A DNA stretch of 64,000 bases, from positions 5,766,001-5,830,000 of the forward strand of contig OZ024751.1 of NCBI GenBank assembly GCA_964016885.1, given 5' to 3'. The DNA comes from Eledone cirrhosa (taxonomy: Eukaryota). Both the position numbers and the translations under genes were made by a program. The notes under the pieces are model-generated. The model did not search any database. It was not told where the DNA came from and saw only the letters and a program-made list of their open reading frames with translations. This document shows positions 1-63,654 of this stretch, piece by piece (position 1 is the first letter of the stretch; each line of letters starts with the position of its first letter).

Positions 1-539
1 TAGAAAACTTAAAGTTAAACAGTTTAACGTTTTAAAGTTGATATATCTAATAGTTCTGAGTTGATCTGTAATTTAAAGGTACTATGTGGCGGTTAAAACA
101 CCGGCCGCGCTCAAGGCCCCCGGGGCGAATTAAACCACTCCGAGTAGTTTCATTTACCGAAAGAAGGGGAAATTTATTTTTCCAAGCACTCCAGGTAGGC
201 TCATGCGCCAGGGGGCTGGTCGCGCCGCCATTAAAACCCACCCAACAGTCCGACAGAAAGTTGGAACTTTAAAATATTGCTTAAATTTATAGGATGAAGT
301 TGAAAGAATTCAGAATAACATTATAAAATTAAAGAGTAAGACGATTGAGAATTGAACAAACAGTAAACTGAAAATTAAACATTTAAAAAAAAACTTCTAT
401 TAGGTTTTTGGTTGCGGGGTTTAATTAAAGAGAGTCTTTTATGAAGAAACGTTAATTGTATTATGTAGATCTATAATTTATCCTAGTGGGATGTAGAGTA
501 CGGGATATAGTCGTGTAATATTTATTTTTGTTCTCAAGG

Positions 540-1007
540 GAGACATTCTAGTGTCGTGTGCTAATGGGTACAAGTGAGCAAAAGTCCCAATAGGAGGAGT
601 AGAAATACATGGATACATAGAAGTGGAATACGTGGAAGAGCACATTGATAAAGCAAAGGTATAAATATATAAGCATTTCAATATATAGATATAAATATGT
701 AAATAAACCAAGAGTGGTGTTGGAGTAAGATGGAGAGTTCAAGACACAGGAGAAATACAATATAGTTCAGGTTGCAGTATTTATGTTCCCAGGGGGAGAT
801 ATTCCAGTGTCGTGTGCTAAGGGTATACGCGAGTAAAAGTCCGAATAAGGGAAGTAAAAAGTACAGGGATGTATAGAGGTAGAATACGTGGAAAAGCATT
901 TATACAGCAAATAAAGATATAAAGATATAAATAAACAAACAAGAGTCGTTGTCTAGTAAATGGAGAGTTCAAGACACAGGAGAAATACAATATAGTTCAA
1001 GTTGCAG
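540..1007. repeat. Diverged tandem duplication, about 255-bp unit
   Basis: agtgtcgtgtgctaa at ~550 and ~806; tggagagttcaagacacaggagaaatacaatatagttca at 731 and 961. Confidence 0.85.
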
Positions 1008-1179
1008 TCAGATAATGCATATAGATGTGGAAATGGAATCAGTGTGTGTTCGAGTCTGGGAATTCAGTGTGAGTTATACATACCCAGAAGTATAGGGTTG
1101 CGAATTTAGTTAATACAGTGCAGTCCTCGATTTTAAGCCCCATGGATTTTATCAATTACATTCACGTATTATATTTCGA

Positions 1180-1237
1180 ATACCTGATGATATCACCGGA
1201 TTCATACGGAACCCGGTCATTGAAATGATCATAGTAT
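1180..1237 (+). ncRNA. Type I hammerhead ribozyme
   Basis: atac-CTGATGA-(accgg...ccggt)-GAAA-tgatca-TA-gtat; stem I atac/gtat; palindromic stem III atgatcat. Confidence 0.8.
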
Positions 1238-1305
1238 AATAAACTTTTCAAGGATTTACACAAATCCAGCCTCCTGTCATTTCATTATAATATTATATAT
1301 ATATT

Positions 1306-10642: not shown

Positions 10643-10859
10643 TATATATATTTATATATATATATATATATATATATAAGCAAACAATCGGTGTTTCCCC
10701 CTTTACGGGATCTTCTGAAACAAAAAAAAATCAATCTGTGAACGCTGAAGTAAATATTTCGAAAAACGTTGCAACCGAAGGAAAACACGAAGACGATACT
10801 TTGGTTCGTGGAAACGTTCCCTGGCAATGAACGGAAAAAAGCGAAGATAATACGTCATT

Positions 10860-11605
10860 ATTTGAAGAAGTGTTAAAGTGATGGAGGAGTAGTAATTATT
10901 GATGTCGAATTGGATGAAACAGCAATGTTCCTTGTTGCATATGCCGTTGAACCAATCAATCACCGCGAAAGAATTGTTCCACAGTGCAAGAGGGGCCAAG
11001 CTTCTAACTTCAGGTATAATTCTATCTAAAATCCTTTTACTAAGTCTACCTAAATCGGACTTCATAGGGTTAATAAGCCGAATAGAGGGGTTGTTGGCGA
11101 AATTGGGTTTGTGGTCCTTCAGGGTAAAGTGCGTCGAAATTAGGGACCAGAGGTTCAACCGATCCAGTTTGTTGTAATAAGATGTGATTTAAAACCCAGC
11201 ATTGTTGATATCATTAATGACATTCCGATTAGTTTTACGGCAATCCTTAGTTACAGCATTATGTAGCAGTTGATGGTAAGTACTGCACTCCACTCGATAT
11301 AGATTGCCAGTTTTGTCGGAGTGGGCGTGCACGGCGTTAGAATCCTTAATAGAACGAATTCTATTCTTTAGGTCCTGCTGGAAGAATTGCTTCTATTCCG
11401 AAATTCGATACTCCGTATGAGTTCCAAGATATCATTTTCGAAGGGTAGCAATGCTGGGTTACTCGGAGGGTTATTGTAAATAAAAGGCACGCCAACGCAA
11501 CCTTTTAATGAACGAGTCTGTTTTCTGTATCAGGAGATTTAGCTATGTCTTCCTGCTTGGTACGGGTATATTCTTTGTAAAAATATTCAGATGTTGTTTC
11601 TGCAT
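10860..11605 (-). pseudogene. Naiad-like PLE reverse transcriptase, N-terminal part (disrupted)
   Basis: Starts MQKQHLNIFTKNIPVPS...FIKRLRWRAFY; later TLKDHKPNFANNPSIRLINPMKSDLG...VIDWF...FIQFDINNYYSSI. Contains stops and frameshifts. Confidence 0.8.
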
Positions 11606-12849: not shown

Positions 12850-13469
12850 CAATATATGTTTACAAGCCGAAATTGCCTCAGATTCTTTTTAAGATGTGGT
12901 CATTGTCGTAGAGAATTTCCAGGGCTTCAGCGGCGCAGAGGTCGCAAGGTCTTTTATTTCCGTTATACGATTTAGCCTTGGCTAGGAAATCCCAGTGTAA
13001 CCTATATTGGGTGTGGTTCTCTTTTAGACTCCAGATATAAGCTGAAAGTGACGTCTTATTCCTTCTTAAATGGATAAGAAAAGGATGGGTATGCATCTAA
13101 AGCCGCTACTTGAATCTATTGGCGGTTAACCCTGTAGGCCCTACGGGACGTGGGTGTTTCAACCTTACATTTGTAGACTATCTTATTGGAGAGGCATTTC
13201 CCGGATAGGGGGCAGTCAACCCGATTCCTACAATTACAGTTAGTACCGGCTACAGGGTTGCACGTGTTCCTACGACTAGGTAATTTAGCTAAATTTGAAG
13301 TTGTGATGTTTTGTGCAAGGTTAGGAGTCGTAGAGTAAGACATTTTAATGGTATTTCTATTCAACATATTATTATATTTATGTGGTAAGGGGAAATGCTT
13401 CTTAATAAGGGGGAGAAAGATCTTAGATAATGGTGTGGCCACCTCCATATTATATGGTGGGTTATACCA
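12850..13469 (-). pseudogene. Naiad-like PLE linker, Cys-rich motif and GIY-YIG endonuclease (disrupted)
   Basis: WYNPPY...NRNTIKMSYS...CNCRNRVDCPLSGKCL..IVYKCKV; TSLSAYIWSLKE...CDLCAAE...SEAISACKH. Confidence 0.8.
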
Positions 13470-13976
13470 TATATACATACATACATGCATACATACATAT
13501 ATACATAAATACATACATTTATACATACATACGTACTGACATGCATATAGACTACACGTATGCGCTTGTATTTGTGTGTGTTTGTGCACGCGAGCATGTG
13601 TGTAACTATATATTTGTGGGCAGACTGTTTGAGGTTATTGTATGGCGTCAGGGCAAAATGGCAGCTAATTATATAATTATATAATATTGGATGTGCTGAA
13701 GGAGGGAGAAGGTTACATTTTAAATACATTCATTAACATTATGTTATGTGATTTTCAGAGTGATAGACGGGAAAGAGAGAGAGATTAAGGTAGCAGTTCA
13801 CAATGGAAATAACTTAACGCTATTGCGGGATAATTTTTCTCTTTTGTTCTCACTCAGCCTGAAGATATAGAAATGTTCTCGATCACTCCTAAAATCCACG
13901 GAGGGGGACTTTCTAGAGGCAAATCCTATTGTCATTCGTAACCGAAATTGCCTTTATATATATATATATATATAAA

Positions 13977-25329: not shown

Positions 25330-26336
25330 AAGTACTCTGGTGAGTAATGGTCTAACCAGTTACTTACTGTATCCATCTTGATTTATACATACAACCGCTA
25401 TATTGGCTCCCACTTTGAAGGATACGCTCTTGCAATCCAGGAACAGGAGATTAGCACGAAATACCTGATTCACAAAAGAGATAGAGATGCAGGCAAAACA
25501 CCTAGATGTGATAACAAGTGCAGACTCTGCAGAACTAACATCGAGGATATCACCCATGTCATCAGCAGCTGTCCAAAGATGTCATCGCGGTACTATCTAT
25601 CTATGAGGCACGATGTAGTGGCCAAGAAACTGTATGATGCAGTTCGTAAAAAAGATAGCCCCGATAATAAACACATTAAAAGCTACAGCAATGTGCAAGA
25701 TACATAATATGATACATAATATGAAAGAGTACTAGTGGAATGTTCCAGTAAAAACCCCAATACAATGCAGGCATAATAGACCAGATATTATGATATGGGA
25801 CAGGGAGAAGAAAGCATGCAGAGTAGTGGAAATTAGCTGCCCAGCAGATGCCAATATAATATCAAAGATTAGTGAAAAGGAGAACATTTATGCAGAACAG
25901 ATGAGAAATCTGCAGATACTCCACCCTGATTACACCTTCAGATTTATGCCTGCGATTATTGGGGCCCTGGGATATGTTAGTAACTGCCTCAATACAAATC
26001 TTGAGAAGCTACGCTTCACAGGAACAGAAATAACACAACGAGTTAGGAAATTACAAGGACAATCCATTAATGGAACAGTAAAAATATGTAAAACATTCCA
26101 AATATTTAGCATCTAATAACTGCATATACACGTATACAGATGCAAAGCATAAACACATGCACACATACAACTCAAAACATCCACATCCACACATACAATA
26201 ACATCCATATCTACACATGAATGCATACATACATATCTACCTAGTTGATGTTGTGTAAATTCCAATGAATTGTGTCTGTTAGAAACCGACTCTCTCTCTA
26301 TTGGTAAAACTTTGTGAAATTATAAAACCAGAAGAA
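25330..26336 (+). mobile_element. R4/Dong-type non-LTR retrotransposon 3' part (CCHC knuckle plus REL endonuclease), disrupted
   Basis: AIQEQEISTKY...CRLC...EDITHVISSC...RHD; HNRPDIMIWD...VVEISCPAD...K (PD-(D/E)xK); IIGALG. Stop at 26116, then 3' UTR. Confidence 0.85.
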
Positions 26337-26932: not shown

Positions 26933-28827
26933 CTAGTGGCTTTTCTGCTGCTGCGCCTCATCAGTGAGTTTAGAAAATCGAGGTTCAACACTAGTTAATG
27001 CCAGTCTCATACACTCGTCAATTGCTGACAGTTTATTCATCTTCTTTGTGCAGATTTTTACCAACTGCGAAAACCCTTCGCACAAGTAGCTAGATGGGAA
27101 TAAATTCAAATATTTCAATGCAAGTTGGCTGATTTCATTAAACTACCCAATCAAGAATAAGTCGATCCATAGATTTTTTTTTTTGCTTTCGAATATCACT
27201 TTCAGGTCTTCGTTTGAATTCAAATCCATCAACTGATGTAAGCATTGTGCAAGTAGTAAATTTTTACAATTTCCAGCGTCATTTTCTGACACTAACTGCT
27301 CGATCTCGGTGAACGGGTTTTTTATCCATAAATGTCCGCTAACAATATCTTTTTCCATCAAGTCAAAATAATCTGAAAAACTTGTGGAAAGCACATTTAA
27401 ATGAGAAAGAATAATCTTCTTTAGATTGCTGGAGTCAAAATCTTCTCTCTTTTTAAGCTCTATTTCAAGGTTTGAAAGTAATGAGTAATTGTCCGATTCA
27501 ATTCTTTTTATAAAGATGTTTAATTTTGATTGAAAATATGTAATAAAATTGATTGAAGTAAAAATATCTGCATTGTTACCCTGAAGACACTTAGTTAGTT
27601 TGTTCAGTTCACCAAAAATGTCTACTAAATAAGCGAGTTGCACATTCCATTCATTGGTTTCTAATACACTTGCTCTTTCATCATTCTGTTTTTTTAGAAA
27701 AACTATTATTTCTTCTCTCAGTTCAAAAACTCTCTTCATAGCATCCCCAAAAGACAGCCAACGCACATCATTGATCAATAACAATCTATTATAATTACTT
27801 CCAGAAGATTCCCATATAGATTCAAACATTCTAGAATTTTTTGCTCTTGCATGGATCAAATTGATAATGTTGACAATGTCTTTCAGCTGGTCATTTAATA
27901 TTTGAGCATCTCTGGCTTTGAATTTTTTTGAACACAAAACCTCTCAATGAATCATACAATGATTTGAAATACAATTTGGGGTCTGTTCTTTAATTTTTGC
28001 AATCAAACCAGAATTTTTACCAGTCATTGCAGCTGCTCCATCTGTTGTTATTGAAGTCAACTTGCTCCAAGATACACCATTTTTTTAAAAATACTCTTCA
28101 ATTTTATTGAATATATCCTGACCTTAGTTGTGATGTCTAATACCAGACAAAACAAATACTCTTCTACTAATTCTTTTTTATCAAGGTCTACAAACCGTAC
28201 ATAGCAAATTAATTGAGCCTTGTTATTAATATCCGTAGTTTCGTCCACTTGCAGACCAAAACATGTGCTTTTCTTTAGTGCAGTTAGTATCTGATTTTCT
28301 ATATCAGAAGAAATATCAATTATCCTTCTTTTCCCGGTATTTGCTGACAATGGTAACTGGCTTAATTTTTCTTTGTCCTTAATACTGCAGCTTTCCAAGA
28401 GATTCTCTGTAGCAATTTTTATACTTGGCAGAATTAACTGTTCTCCTAATGTAAATGGTTTCTTGTTTTTACCAATCAAATGTAAAATTTCAAAAGATGT
28501 TCTTGTGAAAGCTTTATTTCTATCTGACTTTTTACAAAACAAATCATACATATTAGCTTGTGATTTTGTGATGTTGTTTTTCAGCGAAGTAAAGTATTCC
28601 AGTGACTTGCTTTTATCATTGGTGTGATTAGTATCAAGGTGTCTTTTAAGCTTTGCAGGATTTAAACAGCTATTTGATAGAACTTTTTAACATAGCAAAC
28701 ACATGGGATGATCTGGTGTATCTTTTTTAATGTCAGCTTTTTGAAATCCACATCTAACATAATCATCACACCACTGTCTAACCTTACTGCTGGTATCTAA
28801 CTTCAGCTTCTTTGCAGTAGACATCAT
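26933..28827 (-). pseudogene. Buster-type hAT transposase (stops and frameshifts)
   Basis: BED-like CLLC...PAKLKRHLDTNH; KKPFTLGEQLILP; LQVDETTD; TTDGAAAMTG; VRWLS; LAYLVDIF; FPSSYLCEGFS; C-terminal QQQKSH*. Confidence 0.92.
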
Positions 28828-34355: not shown

Positions 34356-34800
34356 TTAGAAATATCTCGGTGGGGCAGTTGCACGCAGAAACGATAGGAC
34401 GGCTAGGATTATTTTGTTTGTGTATTTTGGGGAGGAAGTAGGTGGTGGGTGTGCGAGGACGCGTACAATAAGGTTGGTGGCTGTGGGGGTAGGAGAGAGG
34501 AGGAGAGAGGAGGAGATGAGCTCGTGGATGGTGGAGGACACGAGTTGTTGGTAGCCTGGAGTGGGGTCGGAGGATAAAGGACGGTAAAAAAGGGTATTGT
34601 GAAGCTGGCGGGGAGGCTCAGCCCTATGGAGGTCTTCGCTCCAAACCACCACAGCGCCACCTTTGCCAGCGAGTTTGATGACAATATCATCGCGACACCG
34701 ATGGTTGCGAAGAGCGGAGAGCTCAGTTCGCGTGATGTTAGAGCGACGAGAATGCTGGTGGAAACGGAACCGATTCACAGTACGCCGGCAAGTATCGACA
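34356..34800 (-). pseudogene. Penelope-type RT N-terminal fragment
   Basis: SNITRTELSALR...DIVIKLAGKGGAVVVW (DKG motif region); another frame reads YFLPKIHKQNNPSRPIVSACNCPTE. Confidence 0.85.
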
Positions 34801-35017
34801 AAGGAGTCGAGGGTATATGTTTATATGCTTCAAATTCTAAATTTGTTGAGCTGCATGTATTGTAAATGGTATACCGCACCTCTTTCTAGCGGATGCGACG
34901 TCCTGTCATATTCATACCTGCCGTCACTGTTAAAGAATTAATTCTAACAACGAGCTTTTGGATTGACTACTTCTCGGAACATGACAGGTATAAAGTTATT
35001 TTGTATTTTATTGGATA

Positions 35018-35951: not shown

Positions 35952-36568
35952 TTACAAACAAGACGTTTTTTCCTCTGACGATTAGTTCTGTCTGTTGGAG
36001 ATGAAAGTTGATAATTGGTAATCAGTAATCGATTAATTAGATCGATTTTTAATCTGGTTCTAGGATCTATGAAACAGCGCTGTCGGGAATTTATTAATTC
36101 GTCCACCTTAATGTATATAATGTTTCCTAAATATGATATGCTTTTTAAAAATATGTACAAACTACTACATGATGCTCTAATTGATATATGGCTATATACA
36201 TATATATTTTTAAATTTTGAATTATATATATATTAAAGATCTATTCTTTCACTCTCTATCCTTCTCTGGAACAAATCAACTGTATTCCAACCTGGAGAGG
36301 GATGAACTCCGCCATGTTTCAAATATCCACTAGAAACGCCATAGGAGAAACAGGACTATATATAAAAAAGTAATATATATATATATATATTTAGATATGT
36401 TGGTTCACCACTGGATACAACTGGTCATTCCATATGGTCAACCTCGATGGAGAGCACTCGACGTAATTCAACTCACCCGTCTTCGTTTGCGTTGTTGGTG
36501 CGAGTACGGAGTTAATTATTATGAAATAACAGGAGACTGGACTGGTGTAATTCCTTAAAAGGTTTATT

Positions 36569-36626
36569 ATACTATAATCATTTCAATGACCTGGCTCAGT
36601 GTGAATCCGGTGATATCATCAGGTAT
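36569..36626 (-). ncRNA. Type I hammerhead (left arm of A)
   Basis: Reverse complement atac-CTGATGA-tatcaccgg...caggtcatt-GAAA-tgatta-TA-gtat. Confidence 0.75.
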
Positions 36627-38370
36627 TCGAAATATAATAAAGGAATATAATGGACAAAATCCATGGTGCTGAAAATCAGACATATGAGGGCGGCCGACCA
36701 TTTAGCAGCCCGACAACCGCCCTCGAGTGATTATTATTAAGTCCGCTTATCTCCTTGTGTTGGAGGAGCGTAGGCTTATAGTGCACTACTACCATCCTGT
36801 CAAAGATAGAGGCCAGCGGTGAGATCAGGTTACATTCAAGCTGGTCATGACTGCTAGAAAGTGCCGCGAAAAATATTTTTTCAAAAAAAGGTAATTCCTT
36901 AACAAAGCTATATATATGTGGCGCCAGCACAGTATATTGTATGGTCAGAAATTACGATTAGCAATTAGAAACGTTAAATTTGTGTTTAGAGTTAAAAGAT
37001 GCCATTTAAGATGAAATTAGAAAAGTTACCACCCTAGGTATGACTGCATTTTATTTATGCATTTTACTTATGTTGTTATTTATGTTATATATGTTTTTAT
37101 TTATTCGCTTCAACCCCCACCCCATATACCTATCCTTGTACTCATTAGCGCACGACCCTAGAATATTACTCTCTGTACCCTTATATGTGTTTATCTTTAA
37201 TCACTCCCCCTACCCACTCAAGATTCACACTACATATAACCCGGACTAACTGGGGACTAAATATAATCTATTGACACATTTCATCAGGTTTTGCAACTCT
37301 TAAACTTCACATCACGGGTGTGAATAACTAATAATCGTTTGGTACACGCGATGATCCGAAGGATATGGCGGCTTTCCCGAGAGCACGCCAGGCGCTCGGG
37401 TCGATCAGCCTTCCTAGAGTATATTCGGTAAACGAATATACTCGGAACAACTGTTCCGCACTGGGGCTCTGTCAGACTTGGAATCCGCCATGTAACCGGG
37501 TATTGACCGCCAAACAGTACCTTTAAATTCCAGGCTTAATCATAACTTTTAACTTTATCATGCCTCCTTCTACTAGTACTCAACTAAATTCCCCAACATT
37601 GTGAATAACAAGTAATCGCTAGGTATATACGATAGCCAGCTGACGGTGGTGGACTTCCCGCTAGCACACCCGGCGCTTAAAACAGTTAACATTCCTGGAG
37701 TGCTTGGAAAAATAAATTTCCCTTTCTTTCGCAAGACGAAAATACTCGGAACGGTTGAGACGCCGTTGGGCCCCGGGCTGGCCGGGGGTCTGCAACGTCA
37801 CTGGTTAATGTCCGCTAAGCATGGGCTTAATCTTTACTCTATATTCCACCCTGAAACTCTATCGTGACTATATACACTTATACTTTTTCTTAAAAGCCTC
37901 CTTCTGTAAATTCTTTAACTTAATCTCGCAACCTTAAACCTAAATCTTACTTTTCTAATTTCTTCTTAAAAGGCATCTTTTAACTCTAAACACAAATTTA
38001 ACGTTTCTAATTGCTAATCGTAATTTTTTACCATACAATATACTGTCCTGACGCCATTATATAGCTTTGTTAATGAAATATCTTGTTAAGGAAATACCTG
38101 AGTGCTAGAAGTGCCGCGAAAGATATTTTTCGCGGCACTTTCTAGCACTAATGACCAGCTTGAATGTAACCTGATCTCACTGCTGGCCTCAGTATTTGAC
38201 AGGATGGTAGTAAGCCTACGCTCCTCCACCACAAGGACATAAGTAGACTTAATAATCATCACTTAAGGGCGATTGACCGGGCTGGTGGCTGCTAAATGGT
38301 CGGCCGCCCTCATGTCTCTGATTTTCAGCACCATGGATTTAGTCTATTATATTCCTTTGTAATATTTCGA

Positions 38371-38428
38371 ATACCTGATGATGTCACCGGATTCATACTG
38401 AACCCGGTCATTGAAATGATCATAGTAT
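38371..38428 (+). ncRNA. Type I hammerhead (right arm of A)
   Basis: atac-CTGATGA-tgtcaccgg...ccggtcatt-GAAA-tgatca-TA-gtat. Confidence 0.8.
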
Positions 38429-40945
38429 AATAAAGCTTTTAAGGAATTACACCAGTCAAGCCTCCTGTTATTTTATAATATATATATATGTATATATATA
38501 TTGCTCTTTTAAACTTTTACCCGTTCCAGCCATCCGGCTGAAGCCAGAATGGGGCACCACCCCTATATGTATATAATGTCACGAATCCTCGAACAATCCT
38601 ATATGTTTATGAATATACGGGAGAAAAGACCCGTTCATTGCGCTTCGGCTCCTCCAAAACATCCGCTCAATTATAACAAAATCACAAATTCCATCAAATT
38701 TTTTGCTTATTTTCAAAATGCTTTACAATCCTAGAGAATTTTCTTTTTATTCGGCATATGATAACGAACGTTGAAAGGTGTAAAGTTGATTAGAGGTATT
38801 GTACTTTATAGGACAGTATTCAATACAGCAATATAAGCTTTCAGAAAATGTTTACAGTCTTTTCTAGAATGTAAATTATAGGAAATTCTAATCGATATCC
38901 TTTAGATTACGTAGAGTAGAAAATATACCTTTGAAATAAGTAATATTGAACTAAATAACATGAAATCACAGCGAAAATCTAACTCATGTACACAAAATAT
39001 TTCCGCATGGAGAGCAAACGAATTATAAAAGCGTATAACACCTTCCTGAAGGACACATTAATTTTACATCAGTAAATATTATGGATGTAGCTACATCATT
39101 ATATCTTGCTGGTATAACCAATTCATATTTGAAGATACTTTTCTCAATGATATATCTATAAAGGAAACACGTTTGAAAATAACCTTTCGAGGAACAAGAA
39201 TATATTGCTTTATGGGTATACTTATTTTAAATTATAAAGTTTTGCTATAGGTACGATATATAATAACTACAATGAATAATGAGAATCTACATGGAGTGTA
39301 ATGTTACAATTTTACCTGAGTGACATAAGATCAAGATTCCTTCATTACTCACATTATTACTCTCTGACATATCTGTACATGCATTGTCCCTTTTGGTACA
39401 CCGCAGTTAGTTTCTTATTGATGTCTTTACATATAGCTTATTAAAAGATTCACTGATTTTGGAATGGTGGACGGACTTTCTAATAATTCAATATACAATG
39501 GTGGCATCTTTGTAATTTTAATATATAATGACCAGATTCCTATAGACAGCACACTTGTATGTTTGGTCCTTTTTTAATATTTCGTAATTCTACTACACAC
39601 ACACATTCATAGACACATACAGACACTGAAATACACATACACACATATGTATATATGTTTGTTCACGTGTGTGTATCTGATGTGATAATATGTATATATA
39701 TATATATATATATATATGAGTCCCGCGTTGAATTGGGGCTAACCACAGTAAGTAAAATATTTAATACATTATAATAGAGTGTAAAAATCAAATTTAATAT
39801 AGAAATATTACAGCTGGGTATAGGGTCGTGTGTTTTTGTTTACCTCGGGTGTCATGTAGGTTTTCTTCTTGTCATTTTGTTTTCAAAATGGCGGGAGGGG
39901 CGCGAAACATATTTATCATTGCGATCGAGCCCGTAACATGGAGAATTCTGATGTTCTTGGCCCTAGGTCCACCTCCCTACTCAGCACCGTCGACACGGAG
40001 TTGACTAGCCGCAGGTGTGAGACTCGCCAGTTGGAATGGCTCAATCAACGCGTCCCCCTCGCCATCCTCGGGGAAACGCCTTCTCTATGCAAAGAAGCTA
40101 TCTGACGATTCGAAATTTTTTGATGATTTCCATTGTATATAAAAGAATGCACAATATTGTCTAATCGGATGAAATTGCAGTAATGGCAATATTAAGGGTT
40201 GAGCAGGCTTAGTTTAGTGCTTTGCTGGGAGCTTGCCCTTTTGCTAACTTTGTAAAATTTATTTCACCACTCTCTCTCATACACAAGTTACTTGATAAAA
40301 GTAACACGATTAGAGGGATTTTCTTGCTGATCACTCCACCTGTTATAATTAGCTTTTGAATCACCTTTAAATCCCGTTACACAATTAAATAACGAACGAA
40401 ACTTTCGTAGATGAAACCCTATAGAAATTATGTCTGAAAATTAACCATGACTTTATAGACTTCACTCGAACAAACTCGATTAAATATTTTGTCTATCAAA
40501 GCTGACATTGGACTATCAACAACATCGCTGTACGTATTACCACCATTAAATTAAAGATAAATGGTTAATTGGGAATAGAGATACTGTAACAAATATCTGG
40601 GAATGTGAAAGAACATATTATGCTATTATGTATGTAATTAGTATATCATTAGAGGAATTATATTCAACAAATGCTGACGATATAACAAAAAAATAATGTA
40701 ATTGTATTTTTAAGAAAGCTTATTAGATCATTATACAACAATAAATTGCGTTAATTTTTCACCTTTTATATTCCTAATGATATCAGATCAGATTATTGCA
40801 CCGAATAAAGGCGTTTATTTTCACAAGAATTCTGAAGAAATAAAACGAGTATAAGCATATATAACATTTTTCACAATTATATTTCAACACATAAAAGCAA
40901 ATATATGTACACACACACACACACTCACACACACACACACACACG

Positions 40946-45323: not shown

Positions 45324-46320
45324 AATGTTAGACAAGGTTCAATGAATAAATCAAATAATGAAATTCACAATAGATTGGAAGCACTCAACCGTTATGGTTT
45401 TCCAGAGTTATTAATATTAATTCAAAATATTAACAAAATATATATTATTGTGATCAAGTAATTTTATTATACATATTTCAGAGGTACTGAGTTAAGTTCA
45501 ACAGTACGTCCTCATCAGATAAAATAAGATGATGCATGACATACCCTGACATAGTAGATGGTTAAGATTCAGTCATGGTAGTGAGTAATATATGACAAAA
45601 CTCAATATTTATATACCTTAATATTGAGAACATGAGAAAAATATATAATACATACAATAGAGAGGGTGCGTGTGAGACAGCTTTAAAAATACATGGCATC
45701 AATATAAAAATTATGTTATAAAATTTAAATTACTGAAGAAAGAGGAAATAAAGGAAAGCAAAGAGGAAGAAATAGCTGGTGGATAATATAGTTAGTAGGG
45801 GCCTCGAAAGACAAAAGAGAGTTGATTACAGAGAGAGAGAGAGAGACAAAGAGGAATAATTTACGTTCAAGTTATTAGACAATTATCCATATATACAATA
45901 TATATCTAAACTTATTTGGTTGACCGTTAATATTCAAAATATTTAATTTAAGTTAGTTCAGAGTAATGAATAATATTTTAGGTTTTAAAGGTTAATAGGT
46001 ATCTGTATTAATATTAAAGTATACTATCAAGTTTAATTTCTAAATCCAAATTTTATGAAATTAAGTTTAAAGGATTTACAAACACGAGAAAGGAAACATA
46101 ATGTTTTTACAACCTTACAACTTTACCAAAATTATTTATAATATTGACAACAGTTTATATAATATAATTTAGAAAATAATTACAGTTATAATTTTTAAAG
46201 AATTTATGATTAACAATTTGAGTGCTTAAAGGATCAACAGGCCTTATAATTAAACTTAAATAGTTCCGAATTTTAAATTACATATATGTGTTAATCAAAA
46301 AATTATACAAAGATTATATT

Positions 46321-46956
46321 AAGGCTTTAGATAATTCCTTCCCTAGTCAACATAAATACCGTTCCATATTTAATAGACACACAATTAAGCTTTCTTATTC
46401 TACAACTATGAATATGGCCCAAAACATCGCTAAACTAAATAGTAGAATTCTAAACCCAAATCAGCATAATGCTGTTAATAATAGTGTTAATATAAATAAT
46501 AATAAATCGAAATGTAATTGTAGAAATAAAACAGATTGCTCTCTGCAAAATAATTGTCTGGATAGAATTTGGTGTATAAATGCACCGTAAAAACAAATAA
46601 CAACACATACAACCACATAGGGGCACACTTCTTCGACATTTAAATCGAGATTTGCGAATCACAAATGCTCGTTTTCGAATTTTAATAGGAAGTCTTCGAC
46701 TTCTTTATCACAACTCATATGGTCATTAAAAGACAACAATTTAAAATACTCGATTTTTTGGACGAAGCTTTATAATAGTAAAATCAACTCGAACTCGTCT
46801 ATATCAACTAACTGAAACCTCTACACAAAGGAGACCCTATTAATAATGACTAATTATGAAAACTTAATTAACAAAAAAAGTGACTTATTCTCAAACTGCC
46901 TTCATAAAGCTTTGTCTACATTCCCAGCCTCGCAAAAAGTCAGGAAAAAACACTAA
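46321..46956 (+). pseudogene. Naiad-like linker plus GIY-YIG endonuclease (disrupted)
   Basis: FPSQHKYRSIFNRHTIKLSYS...CNCRNKTDCSLQNNCL; VYKCTV; FKSRFANHKCSF...TSLSQLIWSLKD...N*NLYTKE...NKKSDLFSNCLH. Confidence 0.85.
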
Positions 46957-47433
46957 ACAAACAGTCTTTAATTTTTTGACTATTGGACCTAAAACGTTAT
47001 AACAGTTTATAAAACTTTAATAATACTTTATTTTCTAATCATTTATGATAGAATTAATGTCAGAATGAAGGATCCTGTTCAGGTATATAAACATATTATT
47101 TGGTAACTTGTTCTCTTGATAAATATGCAAACCTTTGGATTAATTTAAATATTTATAATTTAGACTCGGATCTTTTTTTTTGTCTTTGTTTTAATTATAT
47201 AATTTGGATATTTAACTTGTAAGATTACCGGTTATAATTGAACCGTAGATCATTCATGCATTTATATATTTTACTCATTTTGGGTATGTTCTGGGACTCA
47301 GAAAGTTAGATTTGCACTTATATATTTTATATATATCTAGGTATAAATATTACAAACCATACTAGTCGACAAATATTGGTTTCTCTCTCCACTGAACTAG
47401 AGGTAAATCTACAATTATAGCATTACTAATAAT

Positions 47434-47613
47434 TGTTTCTACTTTAGGCACAAGGCCAGCAATTATCCAGTGCATTACTGGTACTTTATTTTATCGACCC
47501 CGTAAGGATGAAAGGCAAAGTCAACCTCGGCGGGATTTGAACTCAGATCGTAAAGGGACGTAAAGCATGGAAAGCATGGCGTCCGACCCTCTACCGATAC
47601 TGCCAATCCATAA
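47434..47613 (-). mobile_element. OK-like SINE with 13-bp TSD
   Basis: TSD cattactaataat at 47421-47433 and 47614-47626. Confidence 0.9.
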
Positions 47614-49005
47614 CATTACTAATAATGTTTGTAATTATTTATTTATTAAATGTATATCGTTTCATTAATACCTATAATACTCCCTCTATATAGGTGTACA
47701 AATATGTTTATCTAGTGTAATAACATGCTCGTAGTTACATTTATAAATAATTTAAATACTCAAATGACTCTCTATTGTTATAAATGTTAGATATTCCCTG
47801 CATGTTCGAAATTATATAATGATTATTACTTAATTTAATATAATTTAATCTATTTTTAATTAAATTTAGATTACCTTCGGCGTTTTCAAGTCTTTAGCTC
47901 CTCTTTCTATCACATTCACTCGACACATTATCTTTTGTCTACTATATATTAAAACCCTCTTACATTTTAAACTATATTTTTATGTTTCGCAAACAATTCA
48001 TTATTTTTCATTTTTTTATTTTTATTTTGTATCTAGCCCTTATCCTTAGGACTCATGTAGTTTTGACTTATATATCTATAGTATATATCAACTAAATGAT
48101 CCTTTTACAATAATTGATCTAAAGCATTAACTTTTAACAATATTTTCAGTAACTTATTTACTATATGGTATTATTGTATTATGTTATATATATTTGAAAG
48201 GTATCACCTTAAGTCTTTAGACAATATAATCTTTGTATATTTTTTTGATTAACACATATATGTAATTTAAAATTCGGAACTATTTAAGTTTAATTATAAG
48301 GCCTGTTGATCCTTTAGGCACTCAAATTGTTAATCATAAATTCTTTAAAATTTATAACTGTAATTATTTTCTAAATTATATTATATAAACTGTTGTCAAT
48401 ATTATAAATAATTTTGGTAAAGTTGTAAGGTTGTAAAAACAATATGATTTCTATCTCGTTTTGTAAATCCTTTAAACTTGATCTCATGAAATTTGTTTTT
48501 AGAAATTAAACTCGATAGTATACTTTAATATTAATACAGATACCTATTAACCTTTAAAATCTAAAATATTATTCATTACTCTGAACTAACTTAAATTACA
48601 TATTTTGAATATTAACGGTCAACCAAATAAGTTTAGATATATATTGTATATATGGATAATTGTCTAATAACTTGAACGTAAATTATTCCTCTTTGTCTCT
48701 CTCTCTCTGTAATCAACTCTCTTTTGTCTTTCGACGCCCCTACTAACTATATTATCCCATCAGCTGTTTCTTCCTCTTTGCTTTCCTTTCTTTCCTCTTT
48801 CTTCAGTAATTTAAATTTTATAACAGTTATATTGATGCCATGTATTTTTTAAGTCTCACACGCACCCTCTCTATTGTATGTATTATATATTTTTCTCATG
48901 TTCTCAATATTAAGGTATATAAATATTGAGTTTTGTCATATATTACTCACTACCATGACTGAATCTTAACCATCTACTATGTCAGGGTATGTTATGCATC
49001 ATCTT

Positions 49006-49070
49006 ATTTTATCTGATGAGGACGTACTGTTGAACTTAACTCAGTACCTCTGAAATATGTATAATAAAAT
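49006..49070 (+). ncRNA. Type I hammerhead (3' end of element C)
   Basis: attttat-CTGATGA-ggac gtactg...cagtac ctct-GAAA-tatgta-TA-ataaaat. Confidence 0.8.
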
Positions 49071-62924: not shown

Positions 62925-63520
62925 CAATACGGACTAGAAGCAATAGGATTCTGGCTAGAGAAATATCCCAACGAGATACCTGGCAGAATAGAAAAAATCT
63001 TCATCACCGCGGGATTAAAATTTATCTTACAGAACAACTTTTTTGATTTCGATGGCAGTACTTACTAAGCAAATATCGGGGACTGCGATGGGTACAAAAG
63101 CCGCTCCAACTTATGCCAACTTAGTCATGGCATACTTAGAAGTCCAGATATATGAACAGTCCAAATCAAAATACGGATTGAACTTCCAGAAATATTTATC
63201 AGAGAATTGGAAACGCTACTTGGATGATTGTCTCATTCTTTGGTCCCACACACTCGACCAACTGAATGATTTCAAAAACTTAATAAACGGCATCAATAAC
63301 CACATCCAATTCACAATGGAATACAACCAAGATCAACTCCCATTTCTGGACATCTTAATCTTAAAAAAAGACACAAATATTGAAATTGACATACACTACA
63401 AACCAACAATTTCCAAACAATACCTGTTATTCACCTCCAACCATCCAAAGCACACGAATACGAACATTCCTTTTAACCTAGCAAAAAGAATTTGCACAAA
63501 TGTCTCCAATTATGAAACGC
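62920..63520 (+). pseudogene. Penelope-type RT core/thumb fragment
   Basis: GTAMGTKAAPTYANLVM, WKRYLDD, FTME...LPFLDI, YKPT, HPKH...NIPFNLAKRI; bounded by (TA)n at both ends. Confidence 0.9.
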
Positions 63521-63584
63521 CTATATCAGTAAAATGGAGAGATGCCTATATCAGTAAAAATGATACACATACATATATATCATT

Positions 63585-63654
<70 letters not shown>

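What the first reader, a model, noticed from the sequence alone, without database searches (positions are those of the whole stretch)
37360..37810. Repeated GC-rich structured-RNA-like module inside fold-back family A
Seen: three diverged copies at 37365-37492, ~37626-37810 and the reverse complement of 75-235. Each keeps a stem ttcc-tr-gagtr...tactc-ggaa with a 2-nt bulge, capped by ttcg-[gtaaa or caaga]-cgaa/tgaa. Two copies insert an extra hairpin (ggaaa ataaa tttcc) into this stem. Copy 1 is closed by atggcgg/ccgccat and has a cccgag...ctcggg hairpin; the copy at 75-235 has tggcgg...ccgcca. G-U pairs favour the + strand of A. Pairing that survives loop changes and indels suggests selection on RNA structure (inference). 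I do not recognise the motif; it could be an RT-recruitment or packaging signal, or an unknown ribozyme carried as cargo.
Basis: partly seen in the sequence, partly recalled or inferred. Interest (0 to 1): 0.75.

Follow-up and report, generated by a model that had tools for sequence, protein, structure and literature searches.

The report
Conserved Y-capped RNA in Penelope passenger
This stretch is a roughly 190-base segment, carried one to three times by a very abundant non-coding jumping repeat, whose 60-base centre has changed about as little as the repeat's self-cutting RNA motif region; it is predicted to fold as a long hairpin with a Y-shaped tip and likely acts as a protein-binding signal on the repeat's RNA, but no function has been tested.

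Summary
The three copies are real. They belong to a ~2.1-kb ORF-less, Penelope-type non-autonomous retroelement (minimal hammerhead, 5'-truncated inverted arms, two fixed 3' ends, TA-repeat targets), with at least 1,293 module cores genome-wide. From 277 modules I resolved 14 subfamilies in 7 lineages; all keep module type M1, and modules were re-duplicated independently. The 60-nt core is under constraint (7% divergence versus 33% in spacer, 3% in the hammerhead), its unpaired columns vary more than paired ones (p=0.036), and lineage changes keep pairs somewhat more often than neutral ones (p=0.02-0.06). True covariation in the core is absent and the flanking rod could be a decayed fold-back. 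No Rfam, literature or metagenome match; no coding partner found; no sharp cleavage site. Best reading: a cis-acting, protein-binding RNA domain of the element's transcript (about 50%); a DNA promoter is the main rival. The scan noted other hammerhead/Penelope repeats in this genome, but not this module.

The parts
37026..38480 (+). Forward arm of family A: 5'-truncated copy of a ~2.1-kb non-coding Penelope-type unit, ending at the shorter of two fixed 3' ends, followed by TA repeats
36390..37026 (-). Inverted, 5'-truncated arm of the same element, ending at the longer 3' end next to TA repeats
37364..37492 (+). Module M1 (subfamily S57), predicted rod; this copy has privately lost hairpin a
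37411..37447 (+). Damaged M1 core (TTCC, 2-nt bulge, GAGT stem, hairpin b only)
37633..37813 (+). Module M2 (subfamily S13), predicted rod of about 180 nt
37692..37751 (+). Intact M2 core: predicted three-way junction with hairpin a (37706-37721, loop AATAAA) and hairpin b (37727-37741)
38265..38311 (+). Separate 12-14 bp hairpin just upstream of the hammerhead, kept in 7 of 7 lineages with two-sided pair changes
38371..38428 (+). Minimal type I hammerhead motif (CTGATGA at 38375, GAAA at 38413, palindromic TGATCA, predicted cut after 38424); cleavage untested
   Evidence: features as in PMC4209133
36569..36626 (-). Hammerhead motif of the inverted arm
85..245 (-). Module M1 of sister lineage B (subfamily S32); core 197-138
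1..1124 (-). Lineage B element carrying that module; it runs on beyond the window start
1129..1304 (+). Short opposed arm of the lineage B insertion with hammerhead motif at 1184

Best explanation
The module is a conserved, repeatedly duplicated internal domain of an ORF-less Penelope-type retroelement; it is predicted to fold as a long irregular hairpin with a Y-shaped tip and likely works at the RNA level as a protein-binding signal that would help the element's transcript survive, leave the nucleus or load into the partner's reverse-transcription complex. Shown: element anatomy, copy number, one to three modules per unit, M1 kept in all 7 lineages, core constraint in master lineages, neutral decay after insertion. 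Inferred: transcription of tandem units on the hammerhead strand; folding of the core into a three-way junction; recognition of its invariant unpaired bases by a protein; mobilisation in trans by an unidentified Penelope-like reverse transcriptase/endonuclease that starts copying at the two fixed 3' ends downstream of the hammerhead and copies through the module. Selection would act only on the few master copies that make offspring.
For: Core divergence among 7 M1 lineages is 0.073 against 0.254 in the rod and 0.332 in flanks; over the same lineages the hammerhead is 0.029, the post-hammerhead region 0.09 and upstream spacer 0.33. Singleton mutations in individual copies hit core and flank alike (0.015-0.017 vs 0.017). 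In the core, 10 of 34 paired columns vary among 14 subfamilies against 15 of 26 unpaired (p=0.036), while neutral copies mutate paired columns at least as often (0.019 vs 0.015); the inner helices GAGU/ACUC, GGAA/UUCC and UCG/YGA are unbroken in all 14, with two G-U changes. Subfamily-private changes keep pairing in 16 of 35 cases versus 103 of 391 neutral singletons (p=0.018; about 0.06 by my estimate after counting two double changes once), and are GC-balanced (29:24) where copies drift to AT (420:157, p=0.007). 12 of 14 subfamily majorities fold alone into rod plus Y. Lineage B lost M2 and duplicated M1; lineage D duplicated M2. A neighbouring hairpin on the same strand shows real compensatory changes, so RNA structure is selected in this element.
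Against: Essentially no covariation in the core; pairs with two-sided change 11 observed vs 9.6 shuffled (114 of 500 shuffles as high). The core alone is not more stable than shuffles (z -1.7 to +0.3). My energy-retention test between subfamilies (mean percentile 0.20) was cancelled by a neutral copy-to-copy control (0.21). A random perfect hairpin decays to the observed rod stability after 0.3 substitutions per site (z -2.4). Rod register shifts between subfamilies. Strand signal weak. Most modules were found through core patterns, which can inflate core conservation, although partner modules were picked up passively with up to 5 mismatches in 24 and 5 of 5 hammerhead-anchored loci long enough to reach the zone held module sequence. 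Other parts of the unit are also duplicated, so duplication need not mean benefit. Subfamilies are related, so the p-values overstate independence. No module in coding PLEs sampled.
Confidence: 0.5

Rival explanations
1. The core is a DNA-level internal promoter or enhancer of the tandem unit; its apparent pairing reflects inverted repeats of transcription-factor sites, and duplication raises transcription.
For: Penelope of Drosophila virilis has an internal promoter and tissue-specific elements in its pseudo-LTR (PMC2377424 passages; PMC6765202 passages). Conservation is of sequence, without covariation; the core is not unusually stable; strand asymmetry is weak.
Against: Variation falls preferentially on predicted loops and linkers, and stem changes in the inner helices are G-U on the hammerhead strand; lineage changes keep pairs more often than neutral ones. 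I recognised no promoter motif by eye (recalled motifs, not a tool test).
Confidence: 0.2
2. The rod is the fossil of an old fold-back junction, which these elements make constantly, drifting neutrally; the core looks conserved through ascertainment and sequence exchange between modules.
For: Synthetic perfect hairpins decay to the same stability; energy-retention test fails its control; inversion junctions inside modules are common; a hybrid M1/M2 core occurs.
Against: M1 and M2 cores stay distinct (0.216) while each is conserved across lineages (0.073, 0.113); conservation is confined to 60 nt and approaches that of the hammerhead region; master lineages hold GC content while copies lose it.
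Confidence: 0.13
3. M1 presents or masks a poly(A) signal: the six-base loop of hairpin a is AAUAAA, and the structure would decide whether a tandem transcript ends in the next unit.
For: Of 176 M1-type loops scored, 127 are AATAAA, 10 AATTAAA and 7 AGTAAA; ATTAAA and AGTAAA are common functional variants (recalled). M1 is the type never lost.
Against: M2 loops are mostly AATTAA, AATTGA or AATCGA yet the rest of the core stays conserved; an active signal would cut the RNA upstream of the copying start; the loop is simply A-rich.
Confidence: 0.1
4. The module is a new self-cleaving ribozyme.
For: Eleven invariant unpaired bases in a compact junction; this genome carries unusual ribozyme variants according to unchecked earlier notes.
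Against: 61 5' break points inside 377 module places are spread evenly, none used more than three times; many copies run through both modules; no Rfam match; no covarying pseudoknot in a scan of all column pairs; the element already has a hammerhead motif.
Confidence: 0.05

Closest known systems
Penelope-like elements, EN+ clades (Craig et al. 2021, PMC8557442, passages and supplement searches; Frangieh et al. 2024, PMC11167929, parts 1-2 of 4 read)
   Same: Partial tandems, 5'-truncated inverted arm, two fixed 3' ends, minimal hammerhead, TA-repeat targets.
   Different: No ORF; the two 3' ends lie about 145 nt apart rather than 30-40; no duplicated structured internal domain was mentioned in the passages read.
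Non-autonomous PLEs such as MRC1 of Chlamydomonas (PMC8557442, passage)
   Same: ORF-less, head-to-tail pseudo-LTR copies.
   Different: Different kingdom; MRC1-type elements match an autonomous family at the 3' end, whereas no partner was found here.
Metazoan non-LTR retrozymes (Cervera and de la Pena 2020, PMC7229834, passages)
   Same: Non-coding tandem unit with a type I hammerhead.
   Different: Unit is about 2.1 kb, not about 300 nt; hammerhead is the minimal PLE type; mostly truncated two-armed insertions; circular RNA not shown.
SINE central domains: CORE, V, Deu/Nin, Ceph, Meta (Nishihara et al. 2016, PMC4824008, passages)
   Same: A ~60-nt conserved internal domain of unknown function in a non-autonomous retroelement, proposed to aid transcription or RNA stability.
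   Different: Host element is PLE-type, has no tRNA head, carries the domain in 1-3 copies; known only from this genome; sequence comparison with those domains not done.
Telomerase RNA CR4/5 three-way junction (Logeswaran et al., PMC8480181, passages)
   Same: Three-way junction with a short 5-nt-loop hairpin on the 3' side; PLE reverse transcriptases are sister to telomerase.
   Different: No UU in the loop, no template, pseudoknot or H/ACA seen; protostome telomerase RNAs lack P6.1.
Retroviral and retrotransposon RNA export or localisation elements (RRE, CTE, RTE, I-factor ILS; recalled, no call)
   Same: Long irregular stem with a branched or looped tip acting in cis on the mobile RNA.
   Different: No sequence match in Rfam; function here untested.

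Membership tests
Penelope-like element (non-autonomous) | Partial-tandem, head-to-tail units | tested here: met
   Read-through from 3' end into 5' start in L013, L014, L015, L018, L034, L041 and others
Penelope-like element (non-autonomous) | 5'-truncated inverted arm at the 5' end | tested here: met
   Window and most of 30 loci
Penelope-like element (non-autonomous) | Two fixed 3' ends (tail) | tested here: met
   Of 151 hammerheads, TA runs start at 90-119 nt (54) or 230-269 nt (49) after the motif; spacing longer than the usual 30-40 nt
Penelope-like element (non-autonomous) | Minimal type I hammerhead with palindromic helix III, long helix II, short helix I | tested here: met
   Sequence against PMC4209133; extra bases before GAAA make the helix II closure non-canonical; cleavage not tested
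Penelope-like element (non-autonomous) | 3' end shared with a coding PLE partner | tested here: inconclusive
   None in 40 hammerhead-anchored loci, 30 GIY-YIG loci (1.5 kb flanks) or 28 Hydra-type loci; genome holds far more PLE families than sampled
Non-LTR retrozyme | Short (about 200-400 nt) monomer with canonical hammerhead | tested here: not met
   Unit about 2.1 kb, minimal hammerhead
Non-LTR retrozyme | Expressed as circular RNA | not testable with these tools
   No RNA run was listed
Any Rfam family | Covariance-model match | tested here: not met
   0 at gathering in the window; no hit on a module at E<=10 in 4 loci
Telomerase CR4/5 | P6.1 hairpin with conserved UU loop, inside an RNA with template, pseudoknot and H/ACA | tested here: not met
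   Loops GUAAA, CUAGA, CUGGA, CUAGG; PMC8480181; other domains looked for by eye only
Self-cleaving ribozyme | Site-specific cleavage | not testable with these tools
   Indirect only: no sharp 5' break point
tRNA-derived SINE | tRNA-related head | tested here: not met
   ARAGORN 0 genes in 6 loci; no Rfam tRNA hit; a very decayed head would be missed
SINE central domain superfamilies | Sequence similarity to CORE, V, Deu, Ceph or Meta domains | not tested
   Domain sequences not available as searchable records
Decayed coding region | ORF or protein similarity over the module | tested here: not met
   No ORF of 90 aa or more over 37000-38480; PLE protein fragments do not match the unit

The most novel reading that the evidence does not exclude
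A new class of cis-acting RNA domain, a Y-tipped rod, that ORF-less Penelope passengers need and amplify in order to capture the partner's telomerase-like reverse transcriptase or a host export factor: the PLE counterpart of SINE central domains and a functional analogue of the telomerase activating junction.
Probability: 0.22. Interest if true: 0.72.

Novelty: new variant of a known kind. Interest (0 to 1): 0.45.

Why it matters
How Penelope-like elements choose, protect and export their RNA is almost unknown; one element has been reconstituted in vitro. A non-coding passenger that has run through at least 7 lineages keeps only what it needs in cis, so its conserved islands (hammerhead, post-hammerhead start region, pre-hammerhead hairpin and this core) are a ready list of candidate signals. 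A 60-nt core with natural variants, natural deletions and natural dosage changes makes the question directly testable. If it is a promoter or a fossil, the finding is an ordinary new repeat family.

Tried and rejected
Rfam at gathering and E<=10: nothing on the module. Core pattern in IMG/VR and JGI metagenome contigs: 0 and 0. Full-text search for three core words: 0 papers; the core and hammerhead words are absent from the supplement of PMC8557442 (line breaks could hide a match). Topic searches listed no description of such a module; Repbase/Dfam could not be checked. Sequencing runs: no RNA holder listed, so no reads were laid. Coding partner: PLE ORFs joined to module-bearing copies at L083, L061 and L215 belong to other families with their own 3' regions and are single chimeric or nested junctions; Pfam found no family in three PLE fragments. 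ADAR ratchet (A-to-G excess making the rod G-rich): not seen, A>G 12/1462 vs T>C 19/2501 in paired rod sites of copies, 9 vs 9 at lineage level. Energy-retention test: rejected after its control. Rod pairs defined on one subfamily and scored on seven others (83 of 112 vs 72 expected): not counted as strong, rows are dependent and two-sided changes pair no more often than chance by my count (5 of 9). First paired/unpaired count had two rows out of register and was redone. Resemblances considered from memory and dropped for lack of the required pairing or motifs: HDV/CPEB3, twister sister, SECIS, 5S rRNA box C, SRP, purine riboswitch. Branch-by-branch polarity of substitutions remains open.

Full report
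Setting. The window is AT- and microsatellite-rich animal DNA from a 3.0-Gb assembly; an octopus-like cephalopod is my inference from Hydra-type PLE proteins that resemble, by eye, Hydra-1_Obim in the supplement of PMC8557442 and from earlier unchecked notes.

Observation. Core patterns match 1,000, 455 and 1,293 places genome-wide with zero reversed-control hits; these are exact-match lower bounds. Several details were artefacts of single decayed copies: copy 1 lacks hairpin a through a private loss, the CAAGA loop of copy 2 is not the subfamily state, and the closing stems of copies 1 and 3 are not homologous.

The host element. Family A is a ~2.1-kb unit without an ORF. It occurs as head-to-tail read-throughs, 5'-truncated forward arms and inverted arms, ends at two fixed places about 105 and 250 nt after a minimal type I hammerhead motif, and sits in TA repeats. 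These are the features listed for Penelope-like elements (PMC8557442 passages; PMC4209133 passages; PMC11167929 parts 1-2). The hammerhead word matches 4,796 places. The copy at 75-235 belongs to sister lineage B. No coding partner was found: 40 hammerhead-anchored loci, 30 GIY-YIG loci and 28 Hydra-type loci showed no shared 3' end and no module in a coding element; three ORF-module junctions are one-off chimeras.

The module family. From 277 module copies, 219 fell in 14 clusters of 4 or more and 58 in smaller clusters were left out of subfamily statistics. They form two types, M1 and M2, in 7 lineages. Module chains upstream of a hammerhead were M1-M2 (58), M1 (28), M1-M1 (22), M2 alone (20, probably truncated or cut by the locus edge), M2-M1-M2 (4) and M1-M1-M1 (1). 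Every lineage has M1; the two B lineages lost M2 and duplicated M1. Of 40 loci chosen by the hammerhead alone, 35 ended within 526 nt of it and the 5 that reached the zone, in either arm, held module sequence.

Predicted fold. 12 of 14 subfamily majorities fold alone into a 170-190-nt irregular rod tipped by a three-way junction: UUCC/GGAA, a 2-nt bulge, GAGUG/YACUC, hairpin a (5 bp, 6-nt loop) and hairpin b (3-5 bp, 5-nt loop). z-scores against 40 shuffles run from -0.9 to -5.9 on the hammerhead strand and are better on that strand in 11 of 14.

Evidence for constraint. Among the 7 M1 lineages the core diverges by 0.073, the rod by 0.254 and flanks by 0.332; M2-M2 values are 0.113, 0.25, 0.21 and M1-M2 0.216, 0.446, 0.453. 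For scale, the hammerhead diverges by 0.029, the post-hammerhead region by 0.09 and the upstream spacer by 0.33. Individual copies mutate core and flank at the same rate, so the constraint acts on master copies, not on host loci. Within the core 10 of 34 paired and 15 of 26 unpaired columns vary (p=0.036), against equal or higher paired rates in neutral copies; inner helices are never broken. Subfamily-private changes at confidently paired columns, with the structure predicted without that subfamily, keep the pair in 16 of 35 cases against 103 of 391 neutral singletons (p=0.018, weaker after removing double counts), and lineages hold GC content while copies drift to AT (p=0.007).

Evidence against a strong structural claim. 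RNAalifold on 42 representatives (3 per subfamily, chosen as closest to the majority) keeps only the 12 core pairs, one with a two-sided change. On a 36-pair structure written from these sequences, 83.5% of cells pair, but pairs with two-sided change are 11 against 9.6 in shuffles. The core alone is no more stable than its shuffles, and synthetic perfect hairpins decay to the rod's stability after 0.3 substitutions per site. The energy-retention test looked positive but a neutral copy-to-copy control gave the same value. G-U versus A-C is 21:16 at unbiased pairs. Subfamilies are related, and the core was the search anchor for most loci.

Mechanism. I commit, at about 50%, to an RNA-level protein-binding signal on the unit-length transcript. 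The direct priming and probably the main RT-binding region is more likely the hammerhead and the following 100-250 nt, by analogy with Poseidon of Anolis (PMC11167929), so the module would more likely serve stability, export or loading, as proposed for SINE central domains (PMC4824008 passages). A DNA promoter (20%; PMC2377424 passages), a fossil fold-back (13%), a poly(A)-signal hairpin (10%; loop counts) and a new ribozyme (5%; evenly spread break points) are the rivals.

Comparison and novelty. No Rfam family, tRNA, viral or metagenomic record or paper text (topic searches) matches. It is not CR4/5 (PMC8480181 passages) and not a short retrozyme (PMC7229834 passages). Repbase, Dfam and bioRxiv supplements could not be seen and may hold this repeat. 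Verdict: a real, undescribed conserved domain in a new non-autonomous Penelope-type family; structure plausible but unproven, function open.

Noticed in passing
window 38265-38311 (+) and mirror near 36690-36735 (-): A 12-14 bp GC-rich hairpin about 65-110 nt upstream of the hammerhead is kept in 7 of 7 lineages with two-sided changes (A-U/G-C, C-G/U-A); better covariation than the module itself.
   Followed up: partly
window 38101-38149: A small internal fold-back private to this copy, made from element sequence.
   Followed up: no
window 37411-37462: Copy 1 carries several private changes that each create a perfect local hairpin, suggesting template-switch correction of quasi-palindromes.
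   Followed up: partly
L083:2013 and L215 (772 nt upstream of hammerhead): Lineage B copies truncated inside the module and joined in sense to two different coding PLE families: possible template jumps that could point to the mobilising enzyme; single cases.
   Followed up: partly
window 36470-36480 (-), tail of family A: A GTGAGT splice-donor-like word in the lineage A tail, not kept in lineage B.
   Followed up: no
window 14458, 23941, 31435, 44552, 44733, 45518, 49013, 51212, 52599, 2919: Hammerhead-like cores of several other repeat families, some in large fold-backs such as 45472-49059.
   Followed up: no
window 10703-11188, 13116-13634, 34356-34820, 46264-46590, 63019-63654: Fragments of coding Penelope-like elements of more than one clade; Pfam gave no family for the two window fragments scanned.
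   Followed up: partly
window 27143-28686 (-) and 25348-26116 (+): ORF pieces that look by eye like a hAT-type transposase and a non-LTR restriction-like endonuclease region.
   Followed up: no
window 523-642 / 778-898 and 37135-37164: A second duplicated segment in the 5' part of the unit shares a 30-nt conserved word between lineages A and B.
   Followed up: no
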